Virus record (IMG/VR): IMGVR_UViG_3300042273_000448
From: a virus
Strand: one strand, 5' to 3'
Length of the DNA: 64,000 nt
How positions within the stretch are numbered: position 1 is the first letter of the stretch; each line of letters begins with the position of its first letter. Shown piece by piece: positions 24,001 to 27,000 of the stretch. A program made the position numbers.

Positions 24001-27000
24001 AATCTTGAAAACTAGGAAAAACTCTCAAAATACTAATATAATATACACAGTTTTTTCATAATTTCTGGATTTTTCATATAAGTTATTGAAATCATTAGAT
24101 ATTCATAAAACTTGGTGGATTCCTAAGTTATTGAAATAGTTAGATAATTTATTTTATCCTCTTTTTTAGAGTTTTCCAGATGTTTTTATTATAAATGAGA
24201 AATTTAACTTGTAAACCTTAAAAATTCTTTGTTTACAATTGATACCGAAGTAGATAAATTATTTTATAAATAAGTTTAATTGATATTTGAATAGGTGGAA
24301 TTAAGAGTTTGGACTTGCTAGTTGGTTAAGAGCTAATTAGTGAGCGCTTGGTAAAATATTTCCGAGTGAGGACGACTTCTTCATAAAATGTTTGTCCCAT
24401 TGTCAATGACAATGCAAGATCCGCCCCTGAAGCAACCAAAGGGGATGTATGAATTTCACGCGAGTGACTTTTGTGTCAATTTGACTCATGCTAGGTCCAA
24501 TCCCTTCATGAGCCACCGGCATAAATGCCCAGCAGACGTTATCCTAAAGCCATCTGCTGGAGAGGATAGAATCCGACTGTACTAGTTTCTTGTAACGATT
24601 TTGATTTTTGCTAGTGTTCTTAGTGATCAAAATTTATTAACGGGAAAGGGAAGATCGTTTTGTAGATTGGGAGCATATGAATGCCCAAGAAGTTCAGATC
24701 AAACTAGACCATACCTGAACTTGGCTTAATCAACCAAACAGAACGTAGGAAAACATAAGGAACCTCGCCGCAATGCATACTGTTTCAAAGCTCTTTTGTG
24801 GGGTAATGAGAACGGGATGTGTTTGGCAGGAAATTGAATGTTTCTTCTTAGATTAAATTAGTCTAGGTAAGTCACGTTCAATTTCCTGCCGAATGCATTG
24901 ATAGAATATATATAAAAAATTTTCTATATTATTATTTTATAATTTATTATGGGTGGATTAGAATCTAAATTTGAAATCTAAAGCTCAATAGCAATATCAT
25001 CTACGAATACTGAATTTGATGTTTTCATTTGAATAGAATACATTTCAAATCCATTTGCAGCAACTATTTCTTCAATATTCTTAATCTTTTTTCTTCCAAA
25101 TAATATACTTGAAATATTGAGTTTTTTTGCTTTGACTGCTGTATTGTTGACTAGGATAAGTTTGGTGTCATGGGAAACTTGAAATGCAAAACCATCTTCA
25201 AGTGTGATTTTGATTAATGATGGTACTTTTTCTTCTTCGATTAGTAATACAGGGGAAAACCCTTTTAATGTAGTTAATTCAAGAAATTTTTTGTTTAGTT
25301 CTTTTTTCTTATAAACAAGATTTTTGAGTAGATCAATTCTGATTTTGAAAATGTTGTTTTTTCCTGCTTTGACAGTAACCATTGATCCCCTGTGAACAAG
25401 ACATGTTTTCATATTATAATTCCTTTCTAATTTGAATTATAATTATTTATGTGTTCATTCAAGATCAGTCTGCATTTTCAAGATAGTGATCATCATCAAT
25501 GTCTGCTAGAATCCCTCATACATCCTCATCTTCTTCTTTGTTTTTAAATAGGTCAACATCATCTTCAAAAAGTTGAGTATCAATAAGGAAACATAACCAA
25601 TAAAGAGCCGAGACAAGGTCATCCCCGGTGTCTGCGCTTGAAGAAAATTTTCCGTTTTTTTCAATGAATGTTGAAATTTGTTTAGCTGTTTCCCTATCTT
25701 TAACTATTAGTGATCCATCTTCAATGAGTTTCTTCATTGTAATAACAGCTTTTGTCTTTGATGAAGAAGTTGCTCTAATGCCAATCTCGTTTTCTTTGTT
25801 TCCTGAATTATAAAGGTTTGGGTTTTCAAAGACCCACCAAAGATTCTGTGAAACTGTGGATCCTTCAGCATTATTCTCAATACCGATAATAGCATCATTA
25901 TAGTAAATTGATAATCTATTAATGATAGAAGAAAGTTCATAGGTGTCAGTAACATTGGACTGGAATGTTGCTGCATTAACTAATTTTACTGGTTTAAATG
26001 AATCTATTCTATAAATTTGTATACAAGCATCATGAGCTCCCGATCCTTTAGACGGATCAACACCGATGAGATATTTTTCTCCATCTTTTGGTTTAAGATA
26101 AACCCTAAGTCTTTCATTAAGATCCATAGCAATGGGGTCTTCTAGAGTAGTGTTAATATATCCAATGGCTTCAGTGGAAACAACGGTATTTGATGACCCA
26201 AGAAACTCGACCTCAAATTCCTGGTTGAACTTCTGTATGTTTCCCATGTTTTTAATTTGTTTTTCTTTTCATTTTTTATTTCTACCAGGTATCATGTCCC
26301 AAGTGACTTTCATATGCTTGTATTCGTTTTTACTTGTTTCAGCTCCAGAATAAATTTCATGAAAGAGATTGAATACACCATTTGGAGTAGAAATAATAAT
26401 AATTTTTGCTTCATCAGAAGATGAAATTGCTGGATAGACTGAAGTATAAAATTCTCTAGCAATGTTATCTGAGACGAAGGCTAGCTCGTCGAGGAGAAGC
26501 ATTGAACAATTGTGTGATATTACACCATTTGTTCAATATGATTGTGTGTCTTGTACATTCAATGCGTCGAAAACTTCTATATCATCCCATTGATATTCTT
26601 TTTCTAATACTGTTGTTTTTGGAAAAAGAATATCACCAACAATAATATCTTTAGCTTCTTTAAAAGTAATACCATCAGACAAAAGAAATTTGTGATTATG
26701 TGTGCAATCTATAGTTTCATTGGTTGATAAATCAAATTTTATCAATGTTGATTTTCCTTGATTTATAAACCCATCAAATGGTTTAAATCCTTTGTGTGTT
26801 AATATTTCCATTACTTTCTTCCTATTGATCATCCTTCTGGTAAGTTTTTATCTTTATCATACATTTTTATTTCTTTTGTTTTTACATTATGAATTCAAAT
26901 AGTATTTTTTCTGGACTCTTTCTTTTTCCCTGTTCCTTTCAATCAACCATCTGGGATTTCATGATTTTTACTGATTTGTATAGTTTCTAATGTTAGGGGA

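What the first reader, a model, noticed from the sequence alone, without database searches (positions are those of the whole stretch)
24978..25412. Free-standing Hint-domain ORF immediately downstream of the terminase
The 144-aa protein has intein block-A-, block-B- and block-F-like motifs but no flanking extein and no terminal HN. It could be a decayed intein, a bacterial-intein-like (BIL) domain, or a helper for the split intein next door.
Basis: partly seen in the sequence, partly recalled or inferred. Interest (0 to 1): 0.5.

Follow-up and report, generated by a model that had tools for sequence, protein, structure and literature searches.

The report
Stand-alone dead intein beside phage terminase
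A small phage gene next to the DNA-packaging enzyme is a complete intein (self-splicing protein element) with nothing to splice and no splicing residues, yet evolution keeps it intact, so a selfish element has apparently been put to a new, unknown use.

Summary
The ORF at 24978-25412 (minus strand, 144 aa) is real and is a Hint/intein homologue. Pfam and PHROGs do not see it. A family profile does hit terminase and portal inteins (E down to 1e-10). hhalign gives 99.2% probability over 127 aligned columns. A pLDDT-95 model superposes on the VidaL intein (TM 0.81).

The protein starts 3 residues before the intein Cys1 and stops exactly at the intein's last residue. The block B His, block F Asp and terminal His-Asn are replaced in every member; only Cys1 is kept. 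So it cannot splice.

It is not a decaying relic. dN/dS is 0.06 for the closest pair. It sits right after TerL in every related T4-like contig, including two lineages whose TerL has no intein, so it is not a helper for the neighbouring split intein. It is basic (pI 9.1-9.7), whereas the two local inteins are acidic.

Best reading: a domesticated, non-catalytic Hint-fold binding protein. Its function is inferred, not shown.

Two wider points. The phage reads TGA as Trp. A conserved 603-nt structured RNA with no Rfam family lies directly downstream (24300-24902), supported by 48 compensatory base pairs.

The parts
24978..25412 (-). Free-standing Hint-fold (intein-derived) protein gene, 144 aa. 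It has an MKT leader, then Cys at the intein position 1, and ends ...AIEL exactly where the intein His-Asn would be. Stop codon is TAG.
25421..25427 (-). Ribosome-binding site GAAAGGA, 8 nt before the ATG. AAAGGA/AAGGAA-like sites are present in 5 of the 6 loci (L019 has GAGGGG instead).
25436..25450 (-). Conserved AT-rich motif ATAAATAAtTATAAT between TerL and the ORF, resembling a T4 late promoter or a -10 box. It overlaps the TerL stop codon. In L001 it stays next to the ORF even though a TnpB element separates the ORF from TerL.
   Evidence: conserved in 5 of 6 loci. One search shows it is not enriched across the window, so promoter function is inferred only.
25447..26832 (-). Second terminase gene of the fractured TerL: C-terminal split-intein part plus the C-extein (Walker B and nuclease domain). 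Five in-frame TGA codons are read as Trp.
26509..26832 (-). C-terminal part (108 aa) of the atypically split TerL intein (blocks B, F, G; ends ...VISHN followed by Cys). Within the window it is the closest relative of the target ORF.
   Evidence: (30% identity over 71 aa)
26814..27851 (-). GIY-YIG / NUMOD3 homing endonuclease that splits the intein. It is in the same reading frame as the N-intein stub.
27864..27968 (-). N-terminal 35-aa stub of the split TerL intein (CVPKYTKVCVCDDNG...).
   Evidence: (the contiguous version of this intein is in L015)
28215..28664 (-). Complete 150-aa mini-intein in the TerL P-loop (…RQSGK|CVSWDT…KSHN|STTVG).
26811..28916 (-). First terminase gene of the fractured TerL: N-extein, P-loop intein, middle extein, N-intein stub and endonuclease. 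Ten in-frame TGA codons are read as Trp.
24300..24902 (-). Conserved 603-nt G+C-enriched structured RNA candidate, starting 75 nt after the ORF stop on the same strand. It accompanies the ORF in every locus with enough flank except L017.
   Evidence: No Rfam match.
24188..24215 (-). Strong sigma-70-like promoter match (TTTACA-16-TATAAT). It overlaps a conserved inverted repeat TGTAAAC...GTTTACA between the RNA and the next gene.

Best explanation
The ORF is a domesticated mini-intein. It is a complete Hint-fold domain derived from the terminase inteins that circulate in this phage clade, now encoded as an independent gene with its own ribosome-binding site.

Shown: it has only a 3-5 residue leader before Cys1 and a stop codon exactly at the intein C-terminus. 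The block B His, block F Asp and terminal His-Asn are replaced in all members. It therefore cannot carry out protein splicing or C-terminal cleavage. The gene is kept by purifying selection directly after TerL, whether or not TerL carries inteins.

Inferred: it works as a non-catalytic binding module. The family has become strongly basic (pI 9.1-9.7, against 4.5 and 5.8 for the two real inteins in the same window). This points to a nucleic-acid partner. The most likely candidate is the conserved 603-nt structured RNA encoded immediately downstream on the same strand; DNA or TerL during packaging is the alternative. The invariant Cys1 is not explained by this model.

I put the identity part (Hint-derived, non-splicing, functional gene) at about 0.9 and the binding/RNP mechanism at about 0.3.
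For: Homology and fold:
- Profile hits to TerL and portal inteins.
- hhalign probability 99.2%, E 7e-20.
- BLASTP E 2e-11 to the L015 TerL intein.
- AlphaFold2 pLDDT 95.1; Foldseek TM 0.81 to the VidaL intein, top 50 hits all Hint domains.

Loss of catalytic residues and exact intein boundaries: alignments.

Functional gene:
- dN/dS 0.06 (L001 vs L004), 0.17-0.31 for other pairs.
- Same position after TerL in 6 lineages.
- Present where TerL has no intein.
- The conserved upstream motif stays with the ORF when TnpB is inserted in L001.
- The distant member P0026 contains an in-frame TGA (Trp), as the terminase genes here do.

Binding role:
- Net positive charge, unlike the resident inteins.
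- A co-oriented structured RNA is adjacent in all six lineages with enough downstream flank (window, L001, L004, L007, L015, L019).
- No recognisable small terminase subunit among 36 small proteins of the 64-kb window.
Against: - No direct evidence for any binding partner.
- The ORF evolves much faster than TerL (58/53/26% identity against 88/76/64% for the same genome pairs).
- In contig L017 a TnpB element replaces the RNA cassette while the ORF is intact, so the ORF can exist without the RNA, at least briefly.
- In L007 a terminator-like hairpin separates ORF and RNA, so they need not be co-transcribed.
- The L019 copy has an in-frame TAG, so the gene may be dispensable in some lineages.
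- Strict retention of Cys1 suggests some chemistry may survive.
- The high-confidence model used an alignment made mostly of inteins, so the fold is partly inherited from that alignment.
Confidence: 0.55

Rival explanations
1. Residual Hint chemistry. The invariant Cys1 still undergoes an N-S acyl shift, so the protein cleaves off or transfers its 3-5 residue leader, or forms a covalent thioester or disulfide link to a partner. This would be BIL- or Hedgehog-like N-terminal processing without splicing.
For: Cys at the intein position 1 is kept in all members with an N-terminus: MKTC, MENC, MKNC, MKESC, MGKC, MSKEFC. Only five other columns are invariant across the family. The leader is always very short. 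The Hint fold is intact.
Against: The block B His that activates the N-terminal scissile bond is absent in every member (T/V/V/V/S at that position), and the block F Asp is absent too. A tripeptide has no obvious use as cargo.
Confidence: 0.12
2. Packaging factor. The protein is the functional partner of TerL, replacing or supplementing the small terminase subunit, with or without the adjacent RNA (loosely comparable to phi29 pRNA).
For: Invariant position directly after TerL. TerL here is displaced from the T4 gp13-gp19 module. No gp16/TerS family hit was found among 36 small proteins of the window, nor among TerL's immediate neighbours. The protein is basic and of TerS-like size.
Against: Small terminase subunits are helical oligomeric rings, not Hint folds. 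They are also often undetectable by sequence, and more than half of the genome lies outside the window. No similarity to any TerS family.
Confidence: 0.12
3. Non-functional relic. It is a dead intein copy, or an annotation fragment, that merely persists next to TerL.
For: All splicing residues but one are lost. The family is rare, about 6 sequence clusters in 5.8 billion proteins. One copy (L019) has an in-frame TAG. The ORF evolves faster than TerL.
Against: dN/dS 0.06-0.3. The full-length ORF, start codon and ribosome-binding site are kept in lineages whose TerL exteins are only 64% identical. There is a directional shift to basic composition.
Confidence: 0.07
4. Trans-acting helper or regulator of intein splicing, for example a chaperone or competitor for the atypically split TerL intein.
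For: It is adjacent to a fractured TerL with a split intein in this window. Its closest relative in the window is that intein's C-part.
Against: It is present in phages whose TerL has no intein (L004, L007), or only a contiguous one (L001, L015). It is a complete Hint fold, so it offers no complementary half for a split fragment.
Confidence: 0.04

Closest known systems
Class 1 mini-inteins of phage terminase large subunits, including atypically split TerL inteins (the AceL-TerL type is named from my own knowledge; VidaL is PDB 6vgv; PMC10189870; 'fractured genes', PMC2677866)
   Same: Same fold and clear sequence homology (hhalign 99.2%, TM 0.81). Same length. Same N-terminal Cys and block A pattern (C-x-V-H/x-G-S/T-x-V-T-V-K). 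Same phage clade and the same genomic neighbourhood.
   Different: Not inserted in any host protein. No block B His, block F Asp, terminal His-Asn or +1 nucleophile. Basic rather than acidic. Encoded as its own gene and kept by selection independently of intein presence in TerL.
Arthrobacter sp. FB24 Arth_1007 intein (PMC3196547; abstract read only)
   Same: An intein of phage origin found outside a genuine host gene, with almost no extein sequence.
   Different: That case still has 66 aa of exteins and is described by its authors as a pseudogene. Here there are 3 N-terminal residues, no C-extein, and a multi-lineage family under purifying selection.
Yeast HO endonuclease, a domesticated free-standing relative of the VMA1 intein (from my own knowledge; not tested here)
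   Same: An intein-derived protein that no longer splices, is encoded as a stand-alone gene and has been put to use by its host genome.
   Different: HO keeps the LAGLIDADG endonuclease and a zinc-finger region, and its function is DNA cleavage. The phage protein is only the bare 144-aa Hint domain, and its function is unknown.
Bacterial intein-like (BIL) domains and the Hedgehog Hint module
   Same: Hint fold (Foldseek TM 0.72-0.75 to BIL2 and the C. thermocellum BIL; 0.66 to Hedgehog 1at0). They can act without full splicing.
   Different: BIL and Hog domains are embedded in larger proteins and retain catalytic residues for cleavage or transfer. The ORF matches no Hint/BIL/Hog Pfam model.
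Uncharacterised stand-alone Hint-sized proteins of other phages in BFVD (e.g. A0A1S5RCV4, 143 aa, Lactobacillus phage P1; A0A8S5TJS4, 153 aa; A0A8S5P792, 144 aa 'Hint module')
   Same: Whole-protein structural matches (TM 0.67-0.74 in both directions). This suggests that free-standing Hint-only ORFs recur in phages.
   Different: No detectable sequence similarity (tblastn against 50,697 phage records found nothing). Their context, catalytic residues and status (real genes or fragments of fractured genes) were not examined.

Membership tests
Hint (Hedgehog/intein) fold superfamily | Sequence-profile homology to Hint domains over the whole domain | tested here: met
   hhalign probability 99.2%, E 7e-20, 127 aligned columns. 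Profile search hits TerL and portal inteins at E 1e-10 to 1e-3. Direct Pfam scan is negative.
Hint (Hedgehog/intein) fold superfamily | Horseshoe-like all-beta Hint fold | tested here: met
   AlphaFold2 pLDDT 95.1, pTM 0.87. TM 0.81, rmsd 2.3 A to the VidaL intein; top 50 PDB hits are all Hint domains. Caveat: the alignment used was made mostly of inteins.
Canonical (class 1) intein | Inserted in frame inside a host protein, with N- and C-exteins that are ligated | tested here: not met
   The N-terminal leader is 3 residues (MKT). The stop codon follows the last Hint residue. TAA stops lie upstream in frame.
Canonical (class 1) intein | Cys/Ser/Thr nucleophile at intein position 1 | tested here: met
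   Cys is invariant in all members and aligns with intein Cys1.
Canonical (class 1) intein | Block B Thr-x-x-His | tested here: not met
   Inteins have S/T-x-x-H. The family has SHDT, SHDV, SHNV, NPSV, DLNS, so the catalytic His is absent in all.
Canonical (class 1) intein | Block F Asp, block G His-Asn and a +1 Cys/Ser/Thr | tested here: not met
   Block F Asp is replaced by Ser or Arg. His-Asn is replaced by EL, QI, SI or EF. There is no +1 residue.
Split-intein fragment (fractured gene) | Only an N- or C-terminal part of the Hint fold, fused to an extein, with a complementary partner gene | tested here: not met
   The ORF covers the whole domain (residues 5-140 against 1-135 of 139). It has no extein. 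The only other Hint pieces in the window belong to TerL.
Bacterial intein-like (BIL) domain | Hint domain embedded in a larger, usually secreted or variable protein, with BIL-specific motifs and retained cleavage residues | tested here: not met
   Free-standing 144-aa protein. No Pfam Hint, PT-HINT or Hint_2 match. Catalytic residues lost.
Small terminase subunit (TerS; T4 gp16 type) | Sequence membership in a TerS family; helical oligomerisation core with a DNA-binding domain | tested here: not met
   No Pfam or PHROGs TerS hit. The predicted fold is all-beta Hint. A functional substitution cannot be tested with these tools.
tmRNA (considered for the adjacent 603-nt RNA) | tRNA-like domain with a CCA end, a tag reading frame, and a match to tmRNA models | tested here: not met
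   ARAGORN and Rfam find no tmRNA in the window. There is no conserved reading frame after the shared motif (alignment A4). The only similarity is a 13-nt motif plus CAAAAC shared with Erysipelotrichaceae tmRNA, consistent with a chance pattern hit.

The most novel reading that the evidence does not exclude
The basic Hint-fold protein and the 603-nt structured RNA encoded right behind it form a previously undescribed phage ribonucleoprotein linked to the terminase. The intein scaffold would have been exapted as an RNA- or DNA-binding subunit, a T4-like counterpart of a packaging RNA or a replacement for the missing small terminase. The conserved Cys1 may retain a covalent or redox role.
Probability: 0.15. 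Interest if true: 0.85.

Novelty: new variant of a known kind. Interest (0 to 1): 0.58.

Why it matters
Inteins are usually treated as selfish elements with no benefit to their host. Documented cases of domestication are very few; yeast HO is the classic one.

This would be a compact, testable case in phages. It is a bare Hint domain that has lost its host protein and its splicing chemistry, yet is conserved by selection next to the gene family its ancestors parasitised. It shows one fate of an intein after losing its extein context. It also offers a natural splicing-dead Hint scaffold, and it raises the question of why Cys1 alone is retained.

The neighbourhood adds further value:
- a TGA-to-Trp recoded T4-like phage;
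- a terminase gene fractured by a homing endonuclease inside an intein, with the unfractured form in a sister phage;
- a new large structured RNA with strong covariation support and no Rfam family.

Tried and rejected
- Direct scans of the ORF and three relatives against Pfam and PHROGs gave only noise. tblastn against 50,697 GenBank phage records found nothing.
- A profile search of PDB sequences was only suggestive (gp41-1 intein, E 0.11).
- The first AlphaFold2 run on the 5-sequence family alignment was unusable (pLDDT 51), although Foldseek on it already listed inteins first.
- Extra family members were sought in three ways: a search with the distant member P0026, IMG/VR and metagenome scans, and a mixed family/intein profile (where I set the threshold too strict). 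These added only P0045 and P0046, neither a new member of the free-standing family; the family is rare.
- Split-intein helper idea: rejected because the gene is present beside intein-free TerL genes.
- tmRNA lead for the downstream RNA: a pattern scan of genomes hit Erysipelotrichaceae tmRNA genes. The match is limited to about 50 nt (nhmmer E 0.03-0.1). The total of 46 hits is about what I would expect by chance for this pattern in 596 Gb (my own rough estimate is about 100). The motif sits in a hairpin loop here rather than in tmRNA helix 2. I rejected it as homology.
- Similarity between the TnpB element and the RNA cassette it replaces in L017: none found.
- The upstream motif ATAAATAATTATAAT as a general promoter of this phage: not enriched in the window (8 matches against 4.9 +/- 2.4 expected).
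- Search for a small terminase subunit among 36 small window proteins: none recognised. This does not prove absence.
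Full report
**Setting.**
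The window is 30.7% G+C and comes from a T4-like phage. It encodes gp23-type capsid proteins, a T4-type portal, gp15, gp18, gp19, NrdD/NrdG and 8 tRNAs.

The terminase large subunit (TerL) on the minus strand looks broken under the standard code. However, every in-frame stop between 28916 and 26814 is TGA, and these fall at Trp-like positions, for example YEI*TPEG*KDF against the intein motif LTPxGW. Read with TGA = Trp, TerL is a fractured gene made of two ORFs.
- Gene A (26811-28916) holds the N-extein, a complete 150-aa P-loop mini-intein (28215-28664), a middle extein, a 35-aa N-intein stub (27864-27968) and, in the same frame, a GIY-YIG/NUMOD3 homing endonuclease (26814-27851).
- Gene B (25447-26832) starts with the 108-aa C-part of the split intein (26509-26832) and continues with the Walker B and nuclease domains.

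The spliced product would be 519 aa. It aligns end to end with intein-free TerL proteins of relatives. TGA recoding in phages is known (bioRxiv 10.1101/2021.08.26.457843).

**The observation.**
The ORF at 24978-25412 (minus strand) begins 34 nt after the TerL stop. It has a GAAAGGA ribosome-binding site, is bounded upstream by TAA codons and ends in TAG, so it is 144 aa under either code.

Close homologues of 143-144 aa (53-58% identity) exist in metagenomic contigs (P0002, P0003, P0005), plus partial ones (P0004, P0006). An exhaustive profile search also found a distant free-standing member, P0026 (158 aa, 26% identity).

In every contig the gene lies just after TerL, in the synteny portal(-), gp23(-), TerL(+), this gene(+). 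About 1 kb without called genes follows.

**Is it a Hint domain?**
Pfam and PHROGs scans of the single sequences give nothing. tblastn against GenBank phages gives nothing.

Profile and structure methods agree that it is.
- The family profile, searched against 1.84 billion representative proteins, returns 41 hits at E < 1e-3. Beyond the family itself (including its distant member P0026), those checked are inteins inside TerL or portal proteins (Pfam Intein_splicing, Terminase_6N, Portal_T4). Several alignments cover residues 5-141 against a complete mini-intein.
- hhalign of the family against 14 such mini-inteins gives probability 99.2%, E 7e-20.
- BLASTP against the contiguous TerL intein of relative L015, which is the unsplit version of the window's split intein, gives 30% identity over 110 aa, E 2e-11.
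- With a 33-row alignment of the family plus inteins, AlphaFold2 gives pLDDT 95.1 and pTM 0.87. Foldseek then gives TM 0.81, rmsd 2.3 A to the VidaL intein. All top 50 PDB hits are inteins, BIL or Hedgehog Hint domains.

One caveat applies to the structure. That alignment is mostly inteins, so the fold is partly inherited from it. Its validity rests on the hhalign and BLASTP results.

**Anatomy relative to inteins.**
- The Cys at residue 4 aligns with intein Cys1 and is invariant. The leaders are MKT, MEN, MKN, MKES, MGK and MSKEF.
- Block A is well kept (C-L-V-H-R-G-S-M-V-T-V-K against C-L-H-G-D-T-I-V-T-I-K).
- Block B in inteins reads S/T-x-x-H (THNH, SHDH, TENH). The family reads SHDT, SHDV, SHNV, NPSV and DLNS.
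- The block F Asp is Ser or Arg.
- The final His-Asn is EL, QI, SI or EF, and the stop codon follows at once. P0026 has a 13-residue tail instead.

With no exteins, no branch-resolving Asn and no +1 nucleophile, protein splicing and C-terminal cleavage are impossible. N-terminal activation is unlikely.

**Is it a functional gene or debris?**
Nei-Gojobori dN/dS is 0.06 for L001 vs L004 (86% amino-acid identity, dS 1.1). It is 0.17-0.31 for more distant pairs, where synonymous sites are near saturation.

The ORF, its start and a conserved upstream motif (ATAAATAAtTATAAT) are retained across most lineages, with an AAAGGA-like ribosome-binding site in 5 of the 6 loci (L019 has GAGGGG instead). The motif is also retained in L001, where a 1.3-kb TnpB element has been inserted between TerL and the ORF.

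The gene does evolve faster than TerL. ORF identity is 58/53/26%, against 88/76/64% for TerL exteins in the same genome pairs. One copy (L019) carries an in-frame TAG. P0026 contains an in-frame TGA, so it is read with the recoded code, as the terminase genes here are.

**Relation to TerL inteins.**
Intein content of TerL varies.

| Locus | TerL inteins |
|---|---|
| Window | P-loop intein plus split intein |
| L001 | P-loop intein only |
| L015 | contiguous RGRS-site intein only |
| L004, L007 | none |

The free-standing gene is present in all of them. That rules out a dedicated helper for the split intein. The window contains only three Hint domains: this ORF and the two TerL inteins.

**What it may do.**
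The family is basic (pI 9.1-9.7, net charge +6 to +9). The two genuine inteins of the same window are acidic (pI 4.5 and 5.8). This is a directional change for a fold whose ancestral job needs no partner, and it suggests nucleic-acid binding. That is inference.

The most obvious candidate partner is the element directly downstream, described in the next section. No small terminase subunit was recognised near TerL or among 36 small proteins of the window. The terminase is also displaced from the T4 gp13-gp19 block. A packaging role therefore remains possible, but a Hint fold is unlike any known TerS.

I commit to a non-catalytic binding module, most likely for RNA or DNA, with low confidence in the specific partner. 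The invariant Cys1 is unexplained by this model. It keeps alive a minority reading in which some thioester or disulfide chemistry survives.

**The downstream RNA (outside the given coordinates).**
Window 24300-24902 has 38-46% G+C, against 21-30% in its flanks. It is strongly conserved in six lineages, including L007, where the neighbouring protein is only 26% identical.

RNAalifold predicts 129 pairs in 20 helices. Covariation support is strong.

| Measure | Structure | Controls |
|---|---|---|
| Cells paired | 91.4% | 37-44% with partners slid by 1-3 columns |
| Pairs with compensatory changes | 48 | 8-16 slid; 19.7 +/- 3.1 shuffled (0 of 500 reach 48) |

Many invariant G-U pairs put the RNA on the minus strand, the same as the ORF. 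The single-sequence folding z-score is -2.1. No Rfam 15 family matches, even at E <= 10, and ARAGORN finds no tmRNA.

In contig L017 a 1327-nt TnpB element replaces this cassette almost exactly (L015 3595-4261), while the ORF stays intact.

**Literature and novelty.**
Full-text searches found no description of a free-standing Hint gene beside a terminase. The nearest published case I found is the Arthrobacter Arth_1007 intein, which has 66 aa of exteins and is called a pseudogene by its authors (PMC3196547). Fractured genes and atypically split inteins describe the neighbour, not this ORF (PMC2677866, PMC10189870). Yeast HO is the classic domesticated intein (from my own knowledge).

A Foldseek search of BFVD shows several other phage proteins of 128-172 aa that are Hint-only by structure, for example Lactobacillus phage P1 A0A1S5RCV4. 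Stand-alone Hint ORFs may therefore be a wider, unstudied phenomenon. This tempers the claim of uniqueness.

**Verdict.**
I classify the ORF as a new variant of a known kind: an extein-less, splicing-dead member of the Hint superfamily that is nevertheless under purifying selection.

Noticed in passing
window 24300-24902 (minus strand); also L001 8472-9059, L004 8500-9103, L007 8625-9227, L015 3606-4207, L019 1274-1870: Conserved 603-nt, G+C-enriched structured RNA candidate directly after the Hint ORF. It has 20 helices, 48 pairs with compensatory changes and an invariant 13-nt loop GGUCUAGUUUGAU. It matches no Rfam family and is not a tmRNA. It may be more novel than the ORF itself.
   Followed up: partly
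window-wide; clearest at 25447-28916: The phage reads TGA as Trp (code 4). TerL has 15 in-frame TGA codons at Trp positions. Usage is uneven: NrdD has 1 of 9 Trp encoded by TGA, while one 496-aa ORF at 56391-57881 has 9 of 9. None of the 8 tRNAs in the window (11225-13302) has a UCA anticodon.
   Followed up: partly
window 26509-27968: TerL is a fractured gene. A GIY-YIG/NUMOD3 homing endonuclease sits inside an intein, leaving a 35-aa N-stub and a 108-aa C-part (an atypical split). The endonuclease is in the same frame as the N-stub. The start codon of gene B (26832-26830) lies within the last codons of gene A, giving about 22 nt of overlap; the ATGA there includes a TGA read as Trp. Relative L015 carries the unsplit version of the same intein at the same site.
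   Followed up: partly
L017 1058-2384; L001 6621-7956: A 1.3-kb TnpB (Cas12f1-like_TNB, 393 aa) element is mobile in this phage clade. In L001 it is a clean insertion right after the TerL stop, in opposite orientation. In L017 it replaces the RNA cassette almost exactly. The two copies are 88% identical and show no similarity to the RNA.
   Followed up: partly
L019 954-956: The L019 copy of the Hint gene has an in-frame TAG. This could be pseudogenisation, a sequencing error, or read-through.
   Followed up: no
window 39616-47401 vs 25447-28916: The terminase gene is displaced from the T4-like gp13-gp14-gp15-gp19-gp18 block. No gp16-type small terminase subunit was recognised anywhere in the 64-kb window.
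   Followed up: partly
window 29002-30165 and 35379-36620 (plus strand): There are two gp23-like capsid paralogues. The one next to TerL may be the gp24-type vertex protein.
   Followed up: no
window, among the 36 small ORFs scanned together (positions not mapped): There are strong Pfam hits to anti-defence proteins Acb3 (CBASS inhibitor, E 4e-51) and Tad3 (Thoeris inhibitor, E 2e-37). NADAR, NUDIX, Hsp20, rubrerythrin and a pyrimidine-dimer glycosylase (2190-2660) are also hit.
   Followed up: no
L058 3262-3617, L060 67-414 (Erysipelotrichaceae genomes): The RNA's invariant 13-mer plus CAAAAC also occurs in the 5' part of Erysipelotrichaceae tmRNA. I judged this a chance pattern hit, but it is the only outside similarity found.
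   Followed up: yes
window 24188-24260 (minus strand): A conserved inverted repeat TGTAAAC...GTTTACA overlaps a near-consensus sigma-70-like promoter (TTTACA-16-TATAAT) between the RNA and the next gene (23231-23974; no family hit).
   Followed up: no
BFVD entries A0A1S5RCV4, A0A8S5TJS4, A0A8S5VRF6, A0A8S5P792, A0A8S5TV04, A0A2Z3EFP0: Other phage proteins of 128-172 aa match the model over their whole length (TM 0.59-0.74). Extein-less Hint-only ORFs may be recurrent in phages.
   Followed up: no
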